From a phage: DNA of 64,000 nt. The first letter of the stretch is position 1, and each line of letters opens with the position of its first letter. Position numbers and translations under genes: made by a program. This document shows positions 27,629 to 48,136 of the stretch, piece after piece. Location: the sequence record PZ179880.1; one strand, written 5' to 3'. Below the pieces are notes generated by a model. The model was not told where the DNA came from. It worked only from the letters and a program-made list of their open reading frames with translations, and did no database searches.

Positions 27629-27637
27629 ATCACCTTC

Positions 27638-27823
27638 TTAAAGCATATTCACATAAGCTATTAATTCGTTTTCTTTCTTATCAAACCGATCAGCAAATTC
27701 TTCTTGCTGTTCGGGAGATAGCGGGCCGTATTCATCATAAAAGGTGTTTGCTTCTGTATGCTCATCTAGAAGTTCATGGATAAGCTCAAACAATTTATCT
27801 TTTTGTTCTTTACTCAGACTCAT
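27638..27823 (-). CDS. Small acidic helical protein (61 aa), same small-protein family
   Basis: N-terminus MSLSKEQKDKLFELIHELL. Confidence 0.45.
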   Translation of the reverse strand: MSLSKEQKDKLFELIHELLDEHTEANTFYDEYGPLSPEQQEEFADRFDKKENELIAYVNML

Positions 27824-27989
27824 ATATTAATTTCCAGGAGTTTTAAAATAATTCGCTTTTGCTTAAATATTTCCATAGTTAAATGACCAGTATCTTTTTG
27901 ACCGATTCCAATGGCAAAACCTTTATTGACAGCGAGTTCAATTAAATTATCAAGCTCACGTAACACTTCATACTGTAACTCAAAACTAT

Positions 27990-28202
27990 TCATTTCGGTT
28001 TACCTTCTTTAACGAAATCTGGATAAGGATAAAATCCCGAATAAAATCCTTCACCTTTATGATTGATGCATCCTTTATTAGAACAATAACACCAATAATC
28101 GAAATCACAAGCCATTTCATCGTTGCATAAAGCAAAAACAACTGGCCATTTACACTTTTCACAATGGGCATTTTTAAGAATACTAGTTTGGCTCATAACC
28201 AT
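27990..28202 (-). CDS. Cys-rich hypothetical protein (70 aa)
   Basis: HCEKCKW...CNDEMACDFDYWCYCSNKGCINH suggests metal binding. Confidence 0.45.
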   Translation of the reverse strand: MVMSQTSILKNAHCEKCKWPVVFALCNDEMACDFDYWCYCSNKGCINHKGEGFYSGFYPYPDFVKEGKPK

Positions 28203-28420
28203 GTAACCTTTAAGCAGTATTCTTCTACATGCTGTTTACGACCTTTCTTATCAATAAAGGTATATTCAACGAATGTTCCAATGTAGTCTTTATCTACATC
28301 ATGCGGACTATTAATTGGACATTTAGTACGGCAAATGCGTTCCCATTGACGAATAATTACTGCCTTATTCTTTGGGTCATATGGATGTGGATAATGTATA
28401 TTCATAATAACGGTTCCCAA
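28193..28420 (-). CDS. Hypothetical protein (75 aa)
   Basis: ORF. Confidence 0.45.
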   Translation of the reverse strand: MGTVIMNIHYPHPYDPKNKAVIIRQWERICRTKCPINSPHDVDKDYIGTFVEYTFIDKKGRKQHVEEYCLKVTWL

Positions 28421-28869
28421 TCAACAATCACAATTTCTAATTTAGAGGAATATGTATCTAAAATCCCCTCAATAATATCCCAGTTCCCTTTACCTATGCC
28501 TGCACCAATCCTAGGCATATAGATTGTAGGTTTAATCAGTTTATTTTCACCAAACTCATTTAATTCTAACATACAATTCATTAAAGCGGAATACTCAAAA
28601 TTTGGCCCTGGTTGAAATTGAGTATAAAGGTTGAAGCAATACGCTTTATGAGTCCTAAAGTATTTTTCATAGACTGAGTAAGAACCGAGTTTAGTTACAT
28701 CACCCCATTCAGTCTGTAATTTATCAGCTTCCAAAATTTTAGGGAAAGCTTTGGTTAATTGACCCGCTACGCCTGAACCCATAGTATGAAAACAATTGCA
28801 TCCATGCGCAATATTTTTACCTTCAGCGAAAAGGGCGACAATATCGCCCTTGATATATTTTACAATCAT
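28402..28869 (-). CDS. Macro-domain protein (ADP-ribose binding/processing fold, 155 aa)
   Basis: Macro-domain-like signature HGCNCFHTMGSGVAG and GAGIGKG glycine-rich loop. Confidence 0.55.
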   Translation of the reverse strand: MIVKYIKGDIVALFAEGKNIAHGCNCFHTMGSGVAGQLTKAFPKILEADKLQTEWGDVTKLGSYSVYEKYFRTHKAYCFNLYTQFQPGPNFEYSALMNCMLELNEFGENKLIKPTIYMPRIGAGIGKGNWDIIEGILDTYSSKLEIVIVDWEPLL

Positions 28870-29213
28870 CTAGTACTCAATCCTCGATTATAAGAATCTA
28901 CCAAACGGTCAACCATTGAATGACAAGCGGCTTTATCTTTCTCCTCCGCAACTGAACATTCTAAGGTATTCCACTTTTTAGCATATCGTTTTAATAATGT
29001 ATCGTTTTTGTATCTGCTTGATTTATCTCTTTCTCCGTCTTTATATGCATATATTAATTTCTGCGCAAATTCAGCTTGGCATGCTTTATTTTTCCCACAA
29101 TAATCTGCCGCAGTGCGATTTACATATTCTCTAATTTCAGTATATGATGTATCTGCTGACGCAGAAGCAGAAAATGAAATTAATCCTATACATAAAACCA
29201 AAATTTTAGTCAT
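28866..29213 (-). CDS. Small secreted/periplasmic protein (115 aa) with N-terminal signal peptide
   Basis: MTKILVLCIGLISFSASASA signal-like N-terminus; 4 Cys in mature part. Confidence 0.5.
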   Translation of the reverse strand: MTKILVLCIGLISFSASASADTSYTEIREYVNRTAADYCGKNKACQAEFAQKLIYAYKDGERDKSSRYKNDTLLKRYAKKWNTLECSVAEEKDKAACHSMVDRLVDSYNRGLSTR

Positions 29214-29751
29214 TTACTATTTCCAAAAGTTTATTATTTTTAAGGTAATTAGCCTTTTCTAGGACTTCAGAAGCATATTTAGAACCAGCTTTAACATTCC
29301 ATCCCGAATTATAAGAGGATATTGCTTTTCTTATATCGCCCTTATGTATATTTAACCAATAAGAAAGTTCAATGTACGCCCAGGAAGCTGAATTGGATCG
29401 TTTATTCAACATTCTTTTTATTTCAGCATCGGTCATATTATAACCAAGTTCCTTAACTCTTGCTCGCATAGTAGGCAAATAATTTTGGAACATTCCATAA
29501 GCGTGATGCTTTGGTTTAGATTTTAAATTAACTCCGCCAGAGCTTTCTTGCCATAAAATAGCAGCCATTATATGACCTAATCCGCTCTTGTGGATATTTT
29601 TGTGTGTTTTATATTTTCCATCCTTAGAAAATTGTTCCCCGAATTGATACGCGTAACGCATGTTATCGAGTTGGACATTACTGAAAGTATGCTCGGAGCT
29701 ATGTGCCATCATTGAAATGGCCAATAGACCAGCGAGTAGTGCTTTTCTCAT
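29206..29751 (-). CDS. Secreted lytic transglycosylase-like (SLT domain) protein (181 aa)
   Basis: Signal peptide MRKALLAGLLAISMMAHS; catalytic-region motifs WQESSGG and AYGMFQ. Confidence 0.55.
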   Translation of the reverse strand: MRKALLAGLLAISMMAHSSEHTFSNVQLDNMRYAYQFGEQFSKDGKYKTHKNIHKSGLGHIMAAILWQESSGGVNLKSKPKHHAYGMFQNYLPTMRARVKELGYNMTDAEIKRMLNKRSNSASWAYIELSYWLNIHKGDIRKAISSYNSGWNVKAGSKYASEVLEKANYLKNNKLLEIVND

Positions 29752-29758
29752 GCTTACC

Positions 29759-30220
29759 TCATTGAGTTTTAATTACTGCTTTAGAAGCCTTTCCTGGTAA
29801 ACGACGACTGTTGATAATTGCCATCCTACATTGAAGTGACGGGTCTTTGAACTTCGCGTTAGGTTTACAAACTGTAAATCCAAGCCAAAGATTTCCATCT
29901 GTGATTTCTAAACGTCCAGGACGATATTCAACCCCATCAATAAAATCCTCGTCAATGTCAGGACGCGGAGGCATACTCAGGAATTCATTAACTTCTAAAA
30001 CATGGTCTTTTATTTTATGGAATAATTCAAAAACATATGTCTCATCAATCTCCCGTTGAATTGCACGATCAAGAAGATGTTGAGAATATTTTAGATGAAA
30101 CGATGAGACTCCTGCTGCTTTTGATGCCTCACGAATCTCATTGTTAATTTGACGAAACTCCGACTCAAAGTGACGACGAAGCTTATTTCGACGGATAAAA
30201 ACTTCTGTATTGATAGTCAT
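29759..30220 (-). CDS. regB: Endoribonuclease RegB (153 aa)
   Basis: MTINTEVFIRRNKLRRHFESEFRQINNEIREASKAAGV matches T4 RegB. Confidence 0.9.
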   Translation of the reverse strand: MTINTEVFIRRNKLRRHFESEFRQINNEIREASKAAGVSSFHLKYSQHLLDRAIQREIDETYVFELFHKIKDHVLEVNEFLSMPPRPDIDEDFIDGVEYRPGRLEITDGNLWLGFTVCKPNAKFKDPSLQCRMAIINSRRLPGKASKAVIKTQ

Positions 30221-30226
30221 GTTATT

Positions 30227-30277
30227 CTCCTCTTAACTGATAGAAAAATTATACCACAGTCAAGAGGAAAAGTAAAC
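30227..30277 (-). promoter_or_regulatory. Early promoter (TTTACT, 17 nt, TATAAT with TGG extension) embedded in an inverted repeat that pairs with the regB RBS
   Basis: Minus strand TGTTTACTtttcctcttgactgTGGTATAAT; arms 30257-30267 and 30227-30239. Confidence 0.5.
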
Positions 30278-30279
30278 AG

Positions 30280-30600
30280 TTATTCTTTAAATCTAATCAA
30301 TTTATTCATAGACTTTGAAACTTCTGCACGAACCTCATGTAGATTTTTGAGCTGTTCAAGACGCTGTTCATAGTAAGCAATTTCATCTTCTTCGAGACAG
30401 TCCTGTGAATCTTCTTTAAGATAACGTGCATAGTCCTGGAAAGCGTTACGAACTACTTCCTGGAAGTCATCAAGACTTTGAATTTTCTTAGGAGCAACAG
30501 ATACACGACGAGGGGCAGTATAATACTCATAACCAAACCCTGCGCTTAATTGAGCCATTAGTATTTTTCCTCTGGCTGGAACACAGCACGACAAGCCCAC
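30280..30600 (-). CDS. Hypothetical protein (start probably internal Met MAQLSAGF)
   Basis: ORF. Confidence 0.45.
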
Positions 30601-38872: not shown

Positions 38873-38948
38873 TGGTCGAGGCAGTAGGGATCGAACCTAC
38901 GACCTAGGACTTAGAAGGTCCTTGCTCTTCCTTCTGAGCTATGCCCCG
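38873..38948 (-). tRNA. tRNA-Arg (anticodon UCU), CCA encoded
   Basis: Manual cloverleaf: acceptor CGGGGCA/TGCCTCG, D-arm TAGCTCAG, anticodon loop CTTCTAA, T-loop GGTTCGATCC. Confidence 0.85.
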
Positions 38949-38951
38949 TAA

Positions 38952-39027
38952 TTGGGTGACCGATGGGAGTCGAACCCATGACTACGAGAATCACAATCTC
39001 GAGTTCTACCAACTGAACTACGGCCAC
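38952..39027 (-). tRNA. tRNA-His (anticodon GUG), discriminator C73, no encoded CCA
   Basis: Acceptor GTGGCCG/CGGTCAC, anticodon loop TTGTGAT, T-loop GGGTTCGACTCCC. Confidence 0.75.
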
Positions 39028-39120
39028 ATTAATACCTACTCCAACAATCAAGATGTCTTCACACGAAATTAAGAGAAGAGTGATCAGTTCAACCCCTATA
39101 ATCGCGTCAAGTAGGTATTA
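39028..39120 (-). ncRNA. Unassigned structured element inside the tRNA operon (not a tRNA)
   Basis: 11-bp perfectly complementary closing stem (TTAATACCTAC / GTAGGTATTAA) enclosing about 70 nt; no T-loop or D-loop. Confidence 0.3.
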
Positions 39121-39141
39121 ATGTGACAGTTGTCACAAATT

Positions 39142-39216
39142 TGGCGGACGTGATAGGATTCGAACCTATAACCAATCGCTTAACAGGCGATCGCTCTGCC
39201 ATTGAGCTACACATCC
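39142..39216 (-). tRNA. tRNA-Asn (anticodon GUU), CCA encoded
   Basis: Acceptor GGATGTG/CACGTCC, anticodon loop CTGTTAA, T-loop GGTTCGAATCC. Confidence 0.8.
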
Positions 39217-39220
39217 AAAT

Positions 39221-39307
39221 TGGTGGGGAGTGGTGGAGTCGAACCACCCGAGTCGCAATGACAATGGATTTACAGTCCACACCGCTACCTCTACGGGATA
39301 ACTCCCC
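39221..39307 (-). tRNA. tRNA-Tyr (anticodon GUA), class II with long variable arm, CCA encoded
   Basis: Acceptor GGGGAGT/ACTCCCC, anticodon loop CTGTAAA, variable arm about 15 nt, T-loop GGTTCGACTCC. Confidence 0.75.
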
Positions 39308-39317
39308 CAAATTAATT

Positions 39318-39392
39318 TGGTGGCCCTGGGTGGAATTGAACCACCATCTGGCGATTATGAGTCGCTTGCTTGAACCTTCCAGCTACAGGGCC
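39318..39392 (-). tRNA. tRNA with anticodon CAU; probably the Ile (AUA-reading, lysidine-type) species rather than Met
   Basis: Acceptor GGCCCTG/CAGGGCC with C4-G69 and C5-G68, anticodon stem-loop GCGACTCATAATCGC resembling bacterial tRNA-Ile2. Confidence 0.75.
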
Positions 39393-39393
39393 T

Positions 39394-39469
39394 TGGTGCT
39401 GATTGACGGAATCGAACCGCCGACCTTCTCATTACAAGTGAGTTGCTCTACCTACTGAGCTAAATCAGC
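39394..39469 (-). tRNA. tRNA-Thr (anticodon UGU)
   Basis: Acceptor GCTGATT/AATCAGC, D-arm TAGCTCAGTAGG, anticodon loop CTTGTAA. Confidence 0.85.
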
Positions 39470-39474
39470 AAAAC

Positions 39475-39564
39475 TGGCGGAGGCGATAGGATTTGAACCT
39501 ATGAGTCGCCGGAGCGACTGCCGGTTTTCAAGACCGGTGCATTAAACCACTCCGCCACGCCTCC
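39475..39564 (-). tRNA. tRNA-Ser (anticodon UGA), class II
   Basis: Acceptor GGAGGCG/CGCCTCC, anticodon arm CCGGTCTTGAAAACCGG, long variable arm. Confidence 0.85.
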
Positions 39565-39566
39565 AG

Positions 39567-39640
39567 TCTCCGTGGCAGGATTTGAACCTACGACATTCTG
39601 CTCCCAAAGCAGACGCTCTACCAAACTGAGCTACACGGAG
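39567..39640 (-). tRNA. tRNA-Pro (anticodon UGG), no encoded CCA
   Basis: Acceptor CTCCGTG/CACGGAG, anticodon loop TTTGGGA, T-loop GGTTCAAATCC. Confidence 0.85.
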
Positions 39641-39650
39641 TAAATTAAAT

Positions 39651-39724
<74 letters not shown>

Positions 39725-39728
39725 AAAT

Positions 39729-39816
39729 TTGGTGCGAGAAGTGGGACTCGAACCCACAAGGAAATCATTCCGCAGCATTTTAAGTGCTGTGCCTTTACCA
39801 ATTTGGCCATTCTCGC
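39729..39816 (-). tRNA. tRNA-Leu (anticodon UAA), class II
   Basis: Acceptor GCGAGAA/TTCTCGC, D-arm TGGCCAAATTGGTAAAGGC, anticodon loop CTTAAAA, long variable arm. Confidence 0.85.
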
Positions 39817-39817
39817 G

Positions 39818-39890
39818 CTGGGAATAAAGGACTCGAACCTTTGCATCCTGGAATCAAAATCCAGTGCCTTACCAACTTGGCTAATTCCCA
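39818..39890 (-). tRNA. tRNA-Gln (anticodon UUG), U1-A72 first pair, no encoded CCA; abuts tRNA-Leu
   Basis: Acceptor TGGGAAT/ATTCCCA, D-arm GCCAAGTTGGTAAGGC, anticodon loop TTTTGAT. Confidence 0.8.
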
Positions 39891-43997: not shown

Positions 43998-44806
43998 ACT
44001 TTGTTTGCAGAGAAACGTTTTCCTTTGGAGTAGAAGCTTTGGAGTGGCATTAACACAACGTTCGCCCAGTCTTTCGGGGCGATTTCAACAAGGCTACCCA
44101 TGATATTACCAGGTATATATGCCTTAATCATTTGATCTGCACCCCTAAATCCTTTCACTTGACTCCAATCAATTTTTAATTTCGTTTTATTAGTAATAGT
44201 AGGTGTATTTGAATATTGCTTTAAAAGCTCTTCTAGAAACTGTTGACGAGCTTTAGGTGGAATATAGTGCAAGTTCAATCCATACATTAAATTATGTTTA
44301 CCTAAACCGAGGTAAATTATCAAAGGAAATTTATCCCAATAAGGAAGAGTTTCCTTGTGTTTAGCATCGTAAGCAAAAGCATATATTCGTCCCGGCTGCG
44401 GGCGAACAACTTTATGTCCTTTTACCTGCTTAATAGTTTCAGCAAACCACTTTCTGGTTTTATTATTAATTGCTGCACCTTCATTACGAATTTTATCACG
44501 CAACGTTTGCCTGAATGAATTTATCATAAGCAGTTGTCTTTCTTGCTTATTGAGTTTATTCATTGGTTTTGATTCAAGCTTTTGAATCTTTTCAGCTGTT
44601 TTAATTCCTGAAGCATATTTTGACATTGCCGAAGTAAACGTAGAATATTTAATTCCTTTTTCTTCAGCAAATTGCTTTCCTGTCATTCCTTTTGCTTTGG
44701 CCTTTTTGTATTCAAGACCTATCTGAATCCATTTCTTTTCGTTTAATGATTGCTTAACCTTTGGAACTTGGGGAGTGCTTTCATTAATTATTTGAAAAAT
44801 AGCCAT
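43979..44806 (-). CDS. 2: DNA end-protector protein gp2 (275 aa)
   Basis: Gene order and size; stop overlaps the gene 4 start. Confidence 0.85.
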
Positions 44807-45258
44807 TATGCCCCCTTAAAGCCAAGAGCTCGTAATCCATCTTCTGTTAAAATTCTAAATTTTATTCCACGCTTTTCAGCTAAAGATTGTGCTGCTTTCC
44901 ATTTGTCAGTATTAACGGAATATGTATAGATTTCATTCATAAATCTTTTCTTCGCTGCAGTTGTTAGATGTGCTGGTTTAACTGGTGGTTGTGTTTCTTT
45001 TTTAGGTTTTATTTCAATAAAAAATTCTTGTCCAGAAGAATCTTTCATCCAAATATCCATGAAGTATCTACGTTTTTTCCCTTCTGCATTACAAAAATAA
45101 GGAATTACTGCTGTTTCACTACCCCATGCAATAATTTCTGGATTTTTATCTAACCATTCAAAAAAGAATTTTTCCCAATTTGATCTATACGTAATTTTTT
45201 TAGGGTCACCTCTATATTTTGATATATTTTTAGGAACCCATTTTCCAGAATATGCCAT
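44806..45258 (-). CDS. 4: Head completion protein gp4 (150 aa)
   Basis: Gene order and size (150 aa). Confidence 0.85.
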
Positions 45259-45269
45259 TGGATTCTCCT

Positions 45270-45277
45270 TATAAATA
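45270..45277 (+). promoter_or_regulatory. Late promoter TATAAATA for gene 53
   Basis: Exact TATAAATA about 30 nt upstream of the gene 53 start. Confidence 0.55.
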
Positions 45278-45285
45278 GATAATAT

Positions 45286-45293
45286 ATTTATAA
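45286..45293 (-). promoter_or_regulatory. Late promoter TATAAATA (minus strand) for genes 4/2/3
   Basis: Reverse complement of tatttata gives TATAAATA about 28 nt upstream of the gene 4 start. Confidence 0.5.
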
Positions 45294-45305
45294 ACAGGAG
45301 GGCCC

Positions 45306-45896
45306 ATGCTCTTTACATTTTTTGATCCGATTGAATATGCGGCCAAAACGGTGAATAAAAACGCGCCGACTATTCCTATGACAGATATTTTTAGAAACTA
45401 TAAAGACTATTTCAAACGTGCTCTTGCGGGATATCGCTTACGTACTTATTATATTAAAGGTTCACCACGCCCGGAAGAATTAGCAAATGCTATATATGGA
45501 AATCCACAGTTGTATTGGGTTTTATTGATGTGTAATGATAATTATGATCCGTATTATGGATGGATTACTTCACAGGAAGCTGCTTATCAAGCATCTATAC
45601 AAAAATACAAAAATGTAGGTGGAGACCAAATAGTATATCATGTGAATGAGAATGGTGAAAAATTTTATAATTTAATATCATACGATGATAATCCATATGT
45701 TTGGTATGATAAAGGCGATAAAGCTAGAAAATATCCTCAATATGAAGGAGCACTTGCTGCTGTTGATACGTATGAAGCTGCTGTTCTTGAAAATGAAAAA
45801 CTTCGTCAAATAAAAATAATAGCAAAATCAGACATCAATTCATTTATGAACGACCTTATACGTATAATGGAGAAATCTTATGGAAATGATAAGTAA
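45306..45896 (+). CDS. 53: Baseplate wedge protein gp53 (196 aa)
   Basis: Gene order and size. Confidence 0.9.
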   Translation: MLFTFFDPIEYAAKTVNKNAPTIPMTDIFRNYKDYFKRALAGYRLRTYYIKGSPRPEELANAIYGNPQLYWVLLMCNDNYDPYYGWITSQEAAYQASIQKYKNVGGDQIVYHVNENGEKFYNLISYDDNPYVWYDKGDKARKYPQYEGALAAVDTYEAAVLENEKLRQIKIIAKSDINSFMNDLIRIMEKSYGNDK

Positions 45897-47607
45897 TAAC
45901 CTTAATTGGTTTGTTGGTGTTGTTGAAGATAGAATGGACCCATTAAAATTAGGTCGTGTTCGTGTTCGTGTGGTTGGTCTGCATCCGCCTCAAAGAGCAC
46001 AAGGTGATGTAATGGGTATTCCAACTGATAAATTACCATGGATGTCAGTTATTCAACCTATAACTTCGGCAGCAATGTCTGGAATTGGAGGCTCCGTTAC
46101 TGGTCCGGTAGAAGGAACTAGAGTTTATGGTCATTTTTTAGACAAATGGAAAACTAACGGAATTGTCCTTGGCACGTATGGTGGGATAGTTCGCGAAAAA
46201 CCTAATAGACTCGAAGGATTTTCTGACCCAACTGGACAGTATCCTAGACGTCTAGGAAATGATACTAACGTATTAAACCAAGGCGGAGAAGTAGGATATG
46301 ATTCGTCTTCTAACATTATCCAAGATAGCAATCTAGACACTGCGATAAATCCCGATGATAGACCACTATCAGAGATTCCAACTGATGATAATCCAAATAT
46401 GTCAATGGCTGAAATGCTTCGCCGTGATGAAGGATTAAGACTAAAAGTTTATTGGGATACCGAAGGATATCCGACAATTGGTATTGGTCATCTTATCATG
46501 AAGCAGCCAGTTCGTGATATGACCCAAATTAATAAAGTTTTATCAAAACAAGTTGGTCGTGAAATTACCGGAAATCCAGGTTCCATTACAATGGAAGAAG
46601 CGGTAACTTTATTTGAACGCGATTTGGCTGATATGCAACGTGACATTAAATCACATTCTAAAGTTGGCCCAGTTTGGCAAGCAGTTAATCGTTCTCGTCA
46701 AATGGCGTTAGAAAATATGGCATTCCAAATGGGCGTTGGTGGCGTAGCTAAATTTACCACAATGTTAACTGCTATGTTAGCCGGAGATTGGGAAAAAGCA
46801 TATAAAGCCGGTCGTGATTCATTGTGGTATCAACAAACAAAAGGCCGTGCATCCCGTGTTACCATGATTATTCTTACAGGGAATTTGGAATCATACGGTA
46901 TTGAAGTTAAAACACCAGCTAGGTCTTTGTCAGCAATGGCTGCTACTGTAGCAAAGTCTTCTGACCCGGCTGACCCTCCTATTCCGAATGATTCGAGAAT
47001 TTTATTCAAAGAACCTGTTTCTTCATATAAAGGTGAATATCCGTATGTTCACACAATGGAAACTGAAAGCGGTCATATTCAGGAATTTGATGATACTCCG
47101 GGGCAAGAACGATACAGATTAGTTCATCCAACTGGAACGTATGAGGAAGTATCACCATCAGGAAGAAGAACGAGAAAAACTGTTGATAATTTGTATGATA
47201 TAACAAATGCTGATGGTAATTTTTTGGTAGCCGGCGATAAAAAGACTAACGTCGGTGGATCAGAAATTTATTACAACATGGATAATCGTCTTCACCAAAT
47301 AGATGGAAGCAATACGATATTTGTGCGTGGAGATGAAACCAAGACGGTTGAAGGTAATGGAACTATCCTAGTCAAAGGTAATGTTACTATTGTAGTTGAA
47401 GGTAATGCTGACATTACAGTTAAAGGGGATGCTACCACTTTAGTTGAAGGAAATCAGACTAATACAGTAAATGGAAATCTTTCTTGGAAAGTTGCTGGAA
47501 CAGTTGATTGGGACGTTGGCGGTGATTGGACAGAAAAAATGGCATCTATGAGTTCTATTTCATCTGGTCAATACACAATTGATGGATCGAGGATTGACAT
47601 TGGCTAA
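45880..47607 (+). CDS. 5: Baseplate hub/cell-puncturing protein gp5 with lysozyme domain (575 aa)
   Basis: N-terminal OB region, internal T4-lysozyme-like segment (MLRRDEGLRLKVYWDTEGYPTIGIGHL), C-terminal VxGxxxxxV beta-helix repeats. Confidence 0.95.
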   Translation: MEMISNNLNWFVGVVEDRMDPLKLGRVRVRVVGLHPPQRAQGDVMGIPTDKLPWMSVIQPITSAAMSGIGGSVTGPVEGTRVYGHFLDKWKTNGIVLGTYGGIVREKPNRLEGFSDPTGQYPRRLGNDTNVLNQGGEVGYDSSSNIIQDSNLDTAINPDDRPLSEIPTDDNPNMSMAEMLRRDEGLRLKVYWDTEGYPTIGIGHLIMKQPVRDMTQINKVLSKQVGREITGNPGSITMEEAVTLFERDLADMQRDIKSHSKVGPVWQAVNRSRQMALENMAFQMGVGGVAKFTTMLTAMLAGDWEKAYKAGRDSLWYQQTKGRASRVTMIILTGNLESYGIEVKTPARSLSAMAATVAKSSDPADPPIPNDSRILFKEPVSSYKGEYPYVHTMETESGHIQEFDDTPGQERYRLVHPTGTYEEVSPSGRRTRKTVDNLYDITNADGNFLVAGDKKTNVGGSEIYYNMDNRLHQIDGSNTIFVRGDETKTVEGNGTILVKGNVTIVVEGNADITVKGDATTLVEGNQTNTVNGNLSWKVAGTVDWDVGGDWTEKMASMSSISSGQYTIDGSRIDIG

Positions 47608-48136
47608 TATACTTCCAATGAGCGCTGATTTAGGAGAATCCATGGAAGGTTCTTCTATCGACGTCACCTTTACCGCTCAATTAGAAACAGGTGAAACGTT
47701 AGTATCTATAAATATAACTAGTTACGAAGAAACTCCTGGGGTTTTAGTAGAAGAAAATCGCTTATACGGAACGTATGAATCTGTATTTGGATTTGGAAAT
47801 GACGCATTGAAATATCGTTTAGATGATGAATTTAAAACTGCTGCTTCATGGGAAGACCTTCCAACTGATTCTAATACTCAGTTATATCTATGGAAAGCTC
47901 CTCAAAACCTCCAGAAGACATTCACTTATGAAGTAACATTAATATATGACTACCAAGAACAAAGTGAATCTGGAGGTTCTGGCAGTAATTCTAGGTCATC
48001 TTCTGATACTACTGAACCAACGGATCCTCCTGCTCCAATAAGAAAAACTCTTGTTAAAAATTACACAAAAACTATAGTTGGAAATTGGAGCCGTTGGGCT
48101 AATAAATTGAGAAGCTACGTATATGAGAGGCAATAA
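47579..48136 (+). CDS. 5.1: gp5.1-like protein (start may be an internal Met)
   Basis: ORF between genes 5 and 5.4. Confidence 0.6.

What the first reader, a model, noticed from the sequence alone, without database searches (positions are those of the whole stretch)
28402..29751. Macro-domain protein next to two signal-peptide proteins, one a lytic transglycosylase
Immediately downstream of regB are a secreted SLT-domain protein (signal peptide plus ESSGG and AYGMFQ motifs), a 115-aa secreted Cys-containing protein, and a cytoplasmic macro-domain protein (HGCNCFHTMGSGVAG). Macro domains bind or hydrolyse ADP-ribose derivatives; in a phage that (like T4) probably encodes ADP-ribosyltransferases this could reverse ADP-ribosylation, or it could degrade ADPR-based defence signals. 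A periplasmic transglycosylase expressed early is unusual and could serve superinfection exclusion or DNA-entry-related cell-wall remodelling rather than lysis.
Basis: partly seen in the sequence, partly recalled or inferred. Interest (0 to 1): 0.55.

Follow-up and report, generated by a model that had tools for sequence, protein, structure and literature searches.

The report
T4 genes vs.1, vs and tk.4
This stretch holds three already catalogued phage T4 genes: tk.4, a macrodomain gene recently shown to protect T4 from the DarTG2 defence, and an exported cell-wall-cutting enzyme (vs.1) that always travels with a small exported partner, vs, whose textbook label "valyl-tRNA synthetase modifier" fits poorly with export.

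Summary
Three back-to-back minus-strand ORFs lie at 28402-29751, just downstream of regB. Their products are 100% identical to phage T4 Tk.4, Vs and Vs.1, so nothing here is a new sequence.

Tk.4 is a macrodomain of the ALC1/TARG1/DarG class. A 2025 preprint named it AdfM: transposon insertions and a clean knockout sensitise T4 to DarTG2. It lacks the catalytic Lys of DarG and TARG1. An invariant Gln84 sits there instead, as in SCO6735, where that Gln is essential for removing ADP-ribose from thymidine in DNA. Hydrolysis of DarT2 adducts on phage DNA is therefore the likely mechanism, though it is inferred rather than shown for T4.

Vs.1 has a signal peptide and all three SLT lytic-transglycosylase motifs.

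The three genes are not one system. However, vs directly follows vs.1 in 52 of 52 related loci, even where regB and tk.4 are absent. Published transposon data show the same fitness defect for insertions in both genes. The open point is a possible periplasmic Vs.1-Vs module, which conflicts with a cytoplasmic role for Vs.

The parts
28402..28869 (-). tk.4 (adfM): a 155-aa cytoplasmic macrodomain protein and anti-DarTG2 factor. Key codons are His22 (28804-28806), Asn25 (28795-28797) and Gln84 (28618-28620).
   Evidence: 100% identical to T4 Tk.4. Pfam Macro match, E 2.9e-6. AF2 model with pLDDT 94.6. Foldseek matches to TARG1, BT1257, Poa1p and DarG, TM 0.72-0.81. Invariant Gln84 aligns with SCO6735 Gln85 and with TARG1 K84 and DarG K80. 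Genetics in T4.
28866..29213 (-). vs: a 115-aa precursor. The predicted Sec signal peptide is residues 1-20 (29154-29213). The mature protein is a 95-aa, 11.05-kDa four-helix protein with Cys39, Cys45, Cys86 and Cys97. It is annotated as valyl-tRNA synthetase modifier.
   Evidence: 100% identical to T4 Vs. In homologues the hydrophobic N-terminus varies in sequence, while Ala20 and four Cys are invariant. In the AF2 model residues 1-18 have pLDDT below 50, followed by four helices. No Pfam, PDB or fold relatives. The family is found only in phage-sized hits.
29206..29751 (-). vs.1: a 181-aa precursor. The predicted signal peptide is residues 1-18 (29698-29751). It carries an SLT / family-1 lytic-transglycosylase-like domain with catalytic Glu69 (29545-29547), G86-x-F-Q89 and Y147-N-x-G150.
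   Evidence: 100% identical to T4 Vs.1. Pfam SLT match, E 1.4e-5, above cutoff. Weak PHROG matches to a lytic tail protein and an endolysin. The three motifs are invariant in 24 diverse homologues.
29759..30220 (-). regB endoribonuclease gene, the upstream neighbour. Listed for context only; it is not part of the feature.
   Evidence: Pfam REGB_T4 match, E 1.4e-68. T4 annotation.
30248..30276 (-). Sigma-70-type promoter-like site (TTTACT, 17-nt spacer, TG-TATAAT) upstream of regB. It is a candidate early promoter for the regB-vs.1-vs-tk.4 transcript.
   Evidence: Consensus scan, 10 of 12 matches with an extended -10. The total number of sites in the region is not above the shuffled expectation, so position is the only argument. 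In T4 these genes have early RNA.
28205..28420 (-). tk.3 (DUF7202, 70 aa from its ATG), the downstream neighbour. Its start overlaps the tk.4 stop codon. Listed for context only.
   Evidence: Pfam DUF7202 match, E 2.1e-38. 100% identical to T4 Tk.3.

Best explanation
This is the vs.1-vs-tk.4 segment of the early regB-to-tk region of a T4-type phage. It holds two functionally separate things.

(1) tk.4 (adfM) encodes a free-standing cytoplasmic macrodomain of the ALC1/TARG1/DarG class. It protects the phage from the DarTG2 toxin-antitoxin defence. The most likely mechanism is hydrolysis of the ADP-ribose that DarT2 attaches to thymidines in single-stranded phage DNA. It would use a Gln-type active site (His22-Gly-Cys-Asn25 plus invariant Gln84), as in Streptomyces SCO6735, rather than the catalytic Lys of DarG and TARG1.
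- Shown: sequence identity with T4 Tk.4, the fold, the active-site alignment, and the genetic requirement of tk.4 for T4 growth on a DarTG2 host.
- Inferred: the enzymatic step in T4.

(2) vs.1 and vs encode two Sec-exported proteins made from overlapping, probably translationally coupled reading frames. Vs.1 is a soluble periplasmic lytic-transglycosylase-like enzyme with an intact catalytic Glu. Vs is a small helical protein with four invariant Cys, and it always accompanies Vs.1 in T4-like phages. They probably act together on or at the cell wall, and they matter most in slowly growing cells in minimal medium.
- Shown: export signals by sequence features, the SLT motifs, the conserved pairing, and a shared fitness profile in published transposon data.
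- Inferred: export itself, muralytic activity, and any physical or functional partnership.
For: Identity:
- Searches show 99.8% DNA identity to Tequatrovirus genomes and 100% protein identity to T4 Tk.4, Vs and Vs.1.

tk.4:
- The T4 HIDEN-SEQ preprint found tk.4 as the single significant hit against DarTG2. A clean knockout sensitised T4.
- Its supplementary table gives mean insertion counts of 288.0 falling to 45.3, log2FC -2.64, adjusted p 0.
- tk.4 is non-essential on a host without the defence, with 45 of 46 TA sites hit.
- A profile of 39 family members matches BT1257 (9.6e-18), Poa1p (1.9e-14), SCO6735 (4.8e-14), TARG1 (5.9e-14) and Mtb DarG (1.9e-13).
- Gln84 is invariant. It aligns with SCO6735 Gln85, BT1257 Gln, TARG1 K84 and DarG K80.
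- SCO6735 removes DarT-made thymidine-ADPr faster than DarG and rescues E. coli from DarT. Its Q85A mutant is inactive.

vs.1 and vs:
- Signal-peptide features are present and are conserved in character but not in sequence.
- The SLT motifs are invariant.
- In 52 of 52 loci with a Vs.1 homologue, the next ORF starts -7 to +4 nt from the vs.1 stop. It encodes a 105-122-aa protein with a hydrophobic N-terminus and four Cys that fits the Vs profile, apart from two apparent frameshifts.
- The pair persists in the seven most divergent loci, which lack regB, tk.4 and tk.
- By contrast, tk.4 directly follows vs (start within 5 nt of the vs stop) in about half of the loci, about 27 of 52 if three loci with an 80-nt gap are also counted, and is absent from about ten.
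- In HIDEN-SEQ data, vs and vs.1 insertions are both depleted relative to their neighbours in every library. Solid LB: 103 and 76 against about 260-630. Liquid LB: 26.6 and 22.6 against about 180-770. M9Glc at 30 C: 9.9 and 9.4 against 267-729. Both fall further from LB to M9, by log2FC -2.19 and -0.87.
- A clean vs deletion impairs plaquing only on M9Glc.
Against: tk.4:
- No biochemical assay of T4 Tk.4 exists in what I could read.
- It lacks the longer mobile loop that characterises the SCO6735/BT1257 subclass.
- It also lacks the DarG Lys, so the chemistry is argued by analogy only.
- SCO6735 also inhibits DarT by binding, so a non-catalytic contribution is possible.

vs.1 and vs:
- SignalP was unavailable and no localisation data were found.
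- The SLT match is modest, at 25 bits, and a profile search of PDB sequences found only a goose-type lysozyme at E 0.6.
- No structure model of Vs.1 was made.
- regB-vs.1 adjacency is also common (45 of 52 loci), so part of the pairing reflects general synteny.
- The similar depletion of vs.1 insertions could be a polar effect on vs.
- From memory, classical work reports that the vs product binds cytoplasmic valyl-tRNA synthetase. A purely periplasmic role does not explain that.
Confidence: 0.8

Rival explanations
1. Vs is what the annotation says: a cytoplasmic factor that binds and modifies host valyl-tRNA synthetase. Its hydrophobic N-terminus is then not a working export signal, or only part of the protein is exported. 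Its position next to vs.1 reflects conserved gene order and nothing more. The depletion of vs.1 insertions is a polar effect on vs.
For: - Public annotation and PHROG 1256 carry the name.
- The papers I could read cite Muller and Marchin 1975/1977 for binding to the synthetase.
- A phenotype in minimal medium is plausible for a factor that affects aminoacylation.
- The predicted mature size of 11.05 kDa is close to the roughly 10-kDa factor that I recall from the older literature.
- regB-vs.1 adjacency is also well conserved.
- vs has a weak ribosome-binding site and overlaps vs.1, so polarity is likely.
Against: - The N-terminus is a textbook Sec signal with a Lys, an 11-residue hydrophobic core and ASA|D. 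Its character, though not its sequence, is kept in all homologues, down to Acinetobacter phages.
- Four Cys are invariant and lie at helix-turn-helix junctions in the model. That fits periplasmic disulfides and is not a CxxC metal site.
- Full-length His-tagged Vs was insoluble in the E. coli cytoplasm.
- A mature size matching the old factor implies cleavage by signal peptidase, which means export.
- The pair survives where all neighbouring genes have changed.
- I could not find how ORF 60.9 of the 1986 sequence came to be named vs.
Confidence: 0.3
2. Tk.4 protects against DarTG2 without catalysis, by binding and blocking DarT2 or by shielding ADP-ribosylated DNA. Alternatively, DarTG2 protection is a side effect of another main activity. 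Candidates are ADP-ribose-1''-phosphate phosphatase or O-acetyl-ADP-ribose deacetylase activity as in Poa1p, reversal of the phage's own Alt/ModA/ModB modifications, or destruction of ADPR-derived immune signals.
For: - Catalytically dead SCO6735, DarG and TARG1 still inhibit DarT in vitro.
- The Tk.4 profile scores Poa1p as high as SCO6735.
- Tk.4 shares Poa1p's HxCNC motif, including the His that was mutated in 6LFS.
- RefSeq calls it a phosphatase with an A1pp motif.
- The catalytic Lys of DarG is missing.
Against: - Gln84 and Asn25 are invariant across the family. That argues for a conserved active site rather than a binding surface for one toxin.
- The equivalent Gln is essential for thymidine-ADPr hydrolysis in SCO6735. 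The equivalent Asn matters in PhiKZ AdfM.
- Tk.4 lacks the DarT-binding C-terminal domain of DarG: only positions 2-146 of a 338-position model are matched.
- tk.4 insertions have no fitness cost without DarTG2. That argues against a housekeeping role in the phage's own ADP-ribosylation.
- The characterised enzymes of this class act on Glu/Asp esters and on thymidine. From established knowledge, T4 Alt and Mod enzymes make Arg linkages instead.
Confidence: 0.12
3. Vs.1 works alone, as an accessory lysis, superinfection-exclusion or cell-wall remodelling enzyme. Vs is an unrelated exported protein, or an inhibitor that keeps Vs.1 in check.
For: - Exported Vs.1-like SLT proteins occur without any Vs-like neighbour in Kuttervirus and Felixounavirus phages.
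- Vs.1 homologues were detected in more phage records (2046) than Vs homologues (796) at E 1e-3 or better.
Against: - Within T4-like phages the pairing is 52 of 52. The lower count for Vs largely reflects its fast divergence: the ZZ1 homologue is only detectable with a profile.
- An inhibitor-only role predicts that losing vs.1, or both genes through polarity, would be harmless. In fact vs.1 insertions are as depleted as vs insertions.
Confidence: 0.2

Closest known systems
T4 Tk.4 / AdfM (anti-DarT factor macrodomain; HIDEN-SEQ preprint, bioRxiv 10.1101/2025.11.20.689424)
   Same: The protein is identical (155 of 155 residues) and sits in the same genomic position.
   Different: Nothing differs at the sequence level. 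The preprint compares the protein only with the DarG macrodomain and assumes enzymatic removal. It does not note that the DarG catalytic Lys is replaced by Gln.
SCO6735 of Streptomyces coelicolor (PDB 5E3B) and BT1257 (PDB 2FG1): Gln-type ALC1-like macrodomains
   Same: - They share the fold class.
- They give the best or near-best profile matches.
- They share the H-x-C-N motif.
- They have a Gln at the position of the TARG1/DarG catalytic Lys.
- SCO6735 hydrolyses DarT-made thymidine-ADPr, and its Gln is essential.
   Different: - Identity is only about 26-28%.
- Tk.4 lacks the 5-6-residue longer mobile loop that defines that subclass.
- Tk.4 is a phage protein.
- Activity has not been measured for Tk.4.
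DarG antitoxin macrodomain (T. aquaticus 5M31, M. tuberculosis 5M3I) and PhiKZ gp104 'AdfM'
   Same: - It has the same fold class.
- It has the same biological outcome, neutralising DarT2.
- The Asn of the ADP-ribose pocket is conserved.
   Different: - The FPTK(K/D)xWR motif with the catalytic Lys80 is absent.
- There is no DarT-binding C-terminal domain.
- The NCBIfam DarG score is 30 bits against a cutoff of 250.
- PhiKZ gp104 matches DarG at E 9.4e-25. Tk.4 matches only at 5e-4 to 6e-3.
- The two phage proteins that share the name AdfM therefore belong to different subfamilies.
Family-1 lytic transglycosylases (Pfam SLT PF01464; e.g. Slt70, MltE) and exported or virion phage muralytic enzymes
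   Same: - It has the E-S, G-x-x-Q and A/S-Y-N-x-G motifs.
- The Pfam SLT match is above threshold.
- It has weak PHROG similarity to a lytic tail protein and an endolysin.
   Different: - It is a small single-domain protein with its own cleavable signal peptide.
- Its RNA is early, with middle protein.
- It is neither a virion protein nor the endolysin.
- It is non-essential.
- No close solved structure exists, and no activity has been shown.
T4 Vs, 'valyl-tRNA synthetase modifier' (PHROG 1256)
   Same: The protein is identical (115 of 115 residues).
   Different: The sequence features, a conserved export signal and four invariant Cys, fit a periplasmic protein. So does its constant coupling to vs.1. 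The named cytoplasmic function does not fit these features.

Membership tests
Macro domain (Pfam PF01661) | Profile score above the curated gathering threshold | tested here: met
   27.7 bits against a cutoff of 22, E 2.9e-6, covering residues 22-132.
ALC1/TARG1/DarG-like macrodomain class | Three-layer macro fold closest to TARG1, DarG, Poa1p and BT1257 rather than to MacroD or viral Mac1 | tested here: met
   AF2 model with pLDDT 94.6. The Foldseek top hits are TARG1, BT1257, Poa1p and DarG, with TM 0.72-0.81 and E 3e-10 to 1e-7. Viral and MacroD-type domains rank lower, with TM about 0.6.
DarG antitoxin (NCBIfam NF048014) | Equivalog score above cutoff, and presence of the C-terminal DarT-binding domain | tested here: not met
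   30.3 bits against a cutoff of 250. Only model positions 2-146 of 338 are matched, and the protein ends at residue 155.
DarG / TARG1 type hydrolases | Catalytic Lys (DarG K80, TARG1 K84) in the T-K motif | tested here: not met
   Invariant Gln84 occupies that column in the MAFFT alignment and in profile alignments to TARG1, Taq DarG and Mtb DarG. TARG1 Asp125 aligns with Gly125.
SCO6735/BT1257 Gln-type ALC1-like hydrolases | Gln at the catalytic position, plus the H-x-C-N pocket motif | tested here: met
   Gln84 aligns with SCO6735 Gln85 and with the BT1257 Gln. H22-G-C-N25 aligns with H24-V-C-N27. Gln85 is essential in SCO6735.
SCO6735/BT1257 Gln-type ALC1-like hydrolases | Extended 'mobile loop', about 5 residues longer than in TARG1 and DarG | tested here: not met
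   The Tk.4 family has a gap where BT1257 and SCO6735 carry the extra residues after the Gln. The loop is described.
Thymidine-ADP-ribose DNA glycohydrolase activity | Removal of ADP-ribose from DarT2-modified ssDNA | not testable with these tools
   Only genetic evidence in T4 is available. Biochemistry exists for SCO6735 and for PhiKZ gp104.
SLT / family-1 lytic transglycosylase (Pfam PF01464) | Profile score above the gathering threshold, and the three signature motifs including the catalytic Glu | tested here: met
   25.1 bits against a cutoff of 21.3. E69-S, G86-x-F-Q89 and Y147-N-x-G150 are invariant in 24 homologues. That these motifs define family 1 is established knowledge, not something tested here.
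SLT / family-1 lytic transglycosylase | Muralytic activity that produces 1,6-anhydro-MurNAc ends | not testable with these tools
   No assay was found in the literature searched.
Sec-exported, signal-peptidase-I-processed proteins (Vs and Vs.1) | A positively charged n-region, a hydrophobic h-region of 10-15 residues, and small residues at -3 and -1 | tested here: inconclusive
   All the features are present. They are conserved in character across homologues. In the Vs model the segment is disordered. SignalP was not available, and no localisation experiment was found.
T4 Vs (valyl-tRNA synthetase modifier) | Sequence identity to the T4 gene product | tested here: met
   115 of 115 residues identical. 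PHROG 1256 match, E 1.7e-39.
T4 Vs (valyl-tRNA synthetase modifier) | Binding to, and modification of, host valyl-tRNA synthetase by this polypeptide | not testable with these tools
   The claim is only cited second-hand in the papers I could read. The basis for assigning the function to this ORF could not be traced.

The most novel reading that the evidence does not exclude
The ORF called vs may not be, or not only be, a cytoplasmic modifier of valyl-tRNA synthetase. Instead it may be the exported, disulfide-bonded partner of the exported lytic transglycosylase Vs.1. Together they would form a conserved two-gene periplasmic module of T4-like phages. In many relatives a third exported protein of about 140 aa follows, and then rI. 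The module would be needed for efficient growth on slowly growing cells in minimal medium. If so, the 50-year-old puzzle of what the ValRS modification is for would partly rest on a mis-assigned or post-lysis association.
Probability: 0.3. Interest if true: 0.6.

Novelty: already known. Interest (0 to 1): 0.33.

Why it matters
As written, the finding re-discovers annotated T4 genes. The experiment it proposes for the macrodomain has already been published, with a positive result for DarTG2.

Two points add something:

- **The T4 anti-DarTG2 macrodomain is not a DarG-type enzyme.** It has a Gln-type active site like SCO6735. This gives a concrete mutational test (Q84A, N25A). It also shows that phages recruited at least two different macrodomain lineages, T4 Tk.4 and PhiKZ gp104, against the same defence.
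- **The vs gene has all the marks of an exported protein and is locked to an exported transglycosylase gene.** The biological role of vs has been unclear since the 1970s. The two genes also share a fitness profile specific to minimal medium. Simple localisation and non-polar deletion experiments could therefore settle a long-open question.

Tried and rejected
Searches that found nothing useful:
- PDB sequence searches for Vs and Vs.1 gave nothing. A Vs.1 family profile found only a goose-type lysozyme at E 0.6.
- A Vs profile run against 1.84 billion representative proteins found 8 hits, all of Vs size. There are therefore no bacterial relatives to borrow a function from.
- Literature searches on how ORF 60.9 became vs, and on any report of Vs or Vs.1 export, found nothing usable. 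Miller et al. 2003 and Muller and Marchin 1975 are not held.

Readings considered and rejected:
- Vs as a lipoprotein. Cys8 is not preceded by a lipobox and is not conserved.
- Tk.4 as a DarG family member. It has no catalytic Lys and no C-terminal domain, and its score is far below the cutoff.
- The three genes as one system. Their distributions differ (2847, 2046 and 796 phage records), and the position of tk.4 varies.
- An extra gene between tk.4 and tk.3 relative to T4. I first thought there was one. It is tk.3 itself, and the real difference from T4 lies further downstream.

Weak evidence:
- The promoter scan as a whole is not above the shuffled expectation.

Not done:
- No structure model of Vs.1 was made, because both prediction jobs went to Tk.4 and Vs.
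Full report
**What is there**

The window is AT-rich (GC about 0.35). Positions 28000-30300 are 99.8% identical to Tequatrovirus genomes, and 597 phage records cover at least 80% of that stretch.

Three tightly packed minus-strand ORFs occupy exactly 28402-29751, downstream of regB at 29759-30220. Against the T4 reference record they are T4 genes tk.4, vs and vs.1. Each product is 100% identical to its T4 counterpart, over 155, 115 and 181 residues.

The stop and start codons overlap: ATGA between vs and tk.4, and ATGACTAA between vs.1 and vs.

A strong sigma-70-like site with an extended -10 lies just upstream of regB. The scan as a whole is not enriched over shuffles, so this is weak evidence. 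In T4, published omics data class all three genes as early RNA and middle protein.

**tk.4**

The protein passes the Pfam Macro threshold. By sequence it is nearest to BT1257, Poa1p, SCO6735, TARG1 and DarG. A confident AF2 model (pLDDT 94.6) is structurally nearest to the same group, with TM 0.72-0.81. Viral Mac1 and MacroD types rank lower.

The A1pp/macro match for tk.4 orthologues was published in 2006. In November 2025 the HIDEN-SEQ preprint reported three things:
- tk.4 is the only significant T4 gene needed on a DarTG2 host.
- A clean knockout sensitises T4 to DarTG2.
- The authors named the gene adfM.

The supplementary table gives mean insertion counts of 288.0 falling to 45.3, log2FC -2.64, adjusted p 0. 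Earlier work had shown that T4 lacking adfA and adfN stays resistant to DarTG2, and had predicted a further factor.

The preprint assumes DarG-like enzymatic removal of ADP-ribose. In a 39-member family alignment, G23, N25, C26, G33, A35, D49, N80, Y82, Q84, P119, I121, G122, G124 and W130 are invariant. The catalytic Lys of TARG1 (K84) and of DarG (K80, in the FPTK motif) aligns with the invariant Gln84. This holds in the MAFFT alignment and in profile alignments. TARG1 Asp125 aligns with Gly.

Tk.4 therefore fails the DarG tests. It has no catalytic Lys and no DarT-binding C-terminal domain, and it scores 30 bits against the equivalog cutoff of 250.

This does not make it inactive. SCO6735 of S. 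coelicolor has Gln85 at that same position and lacks both TARG1 catalytic residues. It still removes DarT-made thymidine-ADPr faster than DarG or TARG1, and it rescues E. coli from DarT. Its Q85A mutant loses all activity. Tk.4's H22-G-C-N25 and Q84 align with SCO6735's H24-V-C-N27 and Q85. Tk.4 lacks the longer mobile loop of the SCO6735/BT1257 subclass, so I describe it as working like that subclass rather than as a member of it.

PhiKZ gp104 is also called AdfM, and it has been shown biochemically to de-ADP-ribosylate DarT2-modified DNA. It is a true DarG-clade protein, matching Mtb DarG at E 9.4e-25 and carrying FPTK. Phages have therefore recruited two different macrodomain lineages against the same defence.

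- tk.4 insertions cost nothing without DarTG2.
- The characterised enzymes of this class act on Glu/Asp esters and on thymidine. From established knowledge, T4's own transferases make Arg linkages.

**vs.1**

The protein passes the Pfam SLT threshold (25.1 against 21.3 bits). It has weak PHROG similarity to a lytic tail protein and an endolysin. In 24 diverse homologues, the E69-S, G86-x-F-Q89 and Y147-N-x-G150 motifs are invariant. The N-terminal 18-25 residues vary in sequence but stay hydrophobic and end in A-x-S or A-x-G.

The SLT similarity was already noted in 2003 and 2006. No solved structure is close by sequence. Homologues occur in 2046 phage records. These include Kuttervirus and Felixounavirus, where the protein also has a signal peptide. 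Several records mislabel it as RegB or endoribonuclease. It is non-essential in T4 on K-12.

**vs**

Its features:
- The N-terminus is a textbook Sec signal, with Lys3, an 11-residue hydrophobic core and ASA|D. The maximum Kyte-Doolittle value is 3.02, against 1.30 for Tk.4.
- In homologues this segment varies in sequence but not in character. Ala20 and four Cys (39, 45, 86, 97) are invariant.
- AF2 leaves residues 1-18 disordered and folds the rest into four helices, with the Cys pairs at the two helix-turn-helix junctions.
- There is no Pfam, PDB-sequence or fold relative.
- Only 8 hits appear among 1.84 billion representative proteins.
- His-tagged full-length Vs was insoluble in E. coli.
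- The predicted mature protein is 95 aa and 11.05 kDa.

All of this points to a periplasmic, disulfide-bonded protein. That is hard to square with a factor that binds a cytoplasmic synthetase. I could not trace how ORF 60.9 of the 1986 sequence came to be named vs, because the key papers are not held.

**Is it one system?**

It is not. Tk.4, Vs.1 and Vs homologues occur in 2847, 2046 and 796 phage records respectively.

I examined 52 loci that carry a Vs.1 homologue: 51 from IMG/VR and Acinetobacter phage ZZ1. tk.4 directly follows vs (start within 5 nt of the vs stop) in about half of them, or about 27 of 52 if three loci with an 80-nt gap are also counted. In others it is separated from vs by inserted genes, and it is absent from about ten.

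vs, in contrast, follows vs.1 in all 52 loci, with a gap of -7 to +4 nt. The downstream ORF always encodes a 105-122-aa protein with a hydrophobic N-terminus and four Cys that fits the Vs profile. Two loci are apparent frameshifts. After removing sequences more than about 85% similar, 24 of 24 remain paired.

The pair persists in the seven most divergent loci, where Vs.1 identity is 39-44% and regB, tk.4 and tk are missing. In ZZ1 the annotated vs start is too short. The upstream ATG, which overlaps the vs.1 stop, restores a signal peptide. A profile comparison aligns all four Cys.

The HIDEN-SEQ supplementary tables add independent support. Mean insertion counts per gene are:

| Library | vs | vs.1 | Neighbouring genes |
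|---|---|---|---|
| Solid LB | 103 | 76 | about 260-630 |
| Liquid LB | 26.6 | 22.6 | about 180-770 |
| M9Glc at 30 C | 9.9 | 9.4 | 267-729 |

Both genes fall further from LB to M9. For vs, log2FC is -2.19 with adjusted p 0. For vs.1, log2FC is -0.87 with p 0.0055 and adjusted p 0.155. A clean vs deletion plaques poorly only on M9Glc.

This fits co-function. It also fits a polar effect of vs.1 insertions on vs, and I cannot separate the two. regB-vs.1 adjacency is also frequent (45 of 52), so some of the signal is general synteny.

**Verdict**

The feature is real, and the coordinates and motifs are right. As stated, however, the finding re-identifies known T4 genes, and its main proposed experiment has already been done.

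- The best-supported mechanism for tk.4 is Gln-type hydrolysis of DarT2's thymidine-ADP-ribose on phage DNA. The genetics are shown. The chemistry is inferred from SCO6735.
- vs.1 and vs most likely encode an exported transglycosylase and an exported partner.
- The conflict between Vs's export features and its textbook name is the one unresolved and moderately interesting point. I put the probability that Vs really works in the periplasm with Vs.1 at about 0.3.

Noticed in passing
window 27629-28191: The window matches T4 at 97-99% DNA identity on both sides, in tk and from tk.3 to regB. Between them the two sequences do not align. T4's tk.1 and tk.2 are replaced by three small minus-strand ORFs. 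One is 61 aa and 54% identical to Tk.2, one is 57 aa, and one is 70 aa with a Pfam Phage_zn_bind match.
   Followed up: partly
window 38873-39890 (- strand): A cluster of 11 tRNA genes (Arg, His, Asn, Tyr, Met/CAT, Thr, Ser, Pro, Gly, Leu, Gln) explains the local GC rise to 0.42. From memory, T4 has eight tRNA genes, so His, Asn and Tyr would be extra in this phage.
   Followed up: no
L003:3004-3333 (Acinetobacter phage ZZ1, NC_018087): The gene annotated as 'valyl tRNA synthetase modifier' starts 33 nt too late in the record. The upstream ATG overlaps the vs.1 stop (TAATG) and restores a signal peptide, MKLINIIAVFCMIISMPVYA|Q.
   Followed up: yes
L003:3330-3761; also L032, L033, L037, L041, L045, L046, L049, L050 and L052-L055, directly after vs: In many T4-like relatives, a third exported protein of 130-147 aa follows vs. 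Its signal peptide ends in ...A|W-E/N/T, and it has 2 Cys. In the most divergent phages a roughly 99-aa protein with a hydrophobic N-terminus comes next, and then rI. This family has no homologue in the window. It suggests an ancestral cluster of periplasmic genes next to rI.
   Followed up: partly
public records, e.g. hits H63, H65, H66 and H73, and cluster P0141: Vs.1 homologues are often mislabelled in GenBank and UniRef as 'endoribonuclease', 'RegB' or 'site-specific RNA endonuclease'. The label was presumably transferred from the neighbouring regB gene.
   Followed up: no
T4 Tk.4 versus PhiKZ gp104: Two phage proteins were independently named AdfM (bioRxiv 2025.11.20.689424; Cell Rep 2026, PMC13309987). 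They belong to different macrodomain subfamilies. PhiKZ gp104 is DarG-type and has the catalytic Lys. T4 Tk.4 is Gln-type.
   Followed up: yes
window about 44000-48000: GC skew changes sign from negative to positive near 45-46 kb. This would fit a switch in the dominant direction of transcription.
   Followed up: no
L004:2453-3070 (Salmonella phage Det7) and L056:2001-2549 (Felixounavirus ASO1B): Exported Vs.1-like SLT proteins also occur outside the T4-like phages. In ASO1B the gene lies directly after rIIA-rIIB. There is no Vs-like gene downstream in Det7; the ASO1B downstream ORFs were not inspected.
   Followed up: partly
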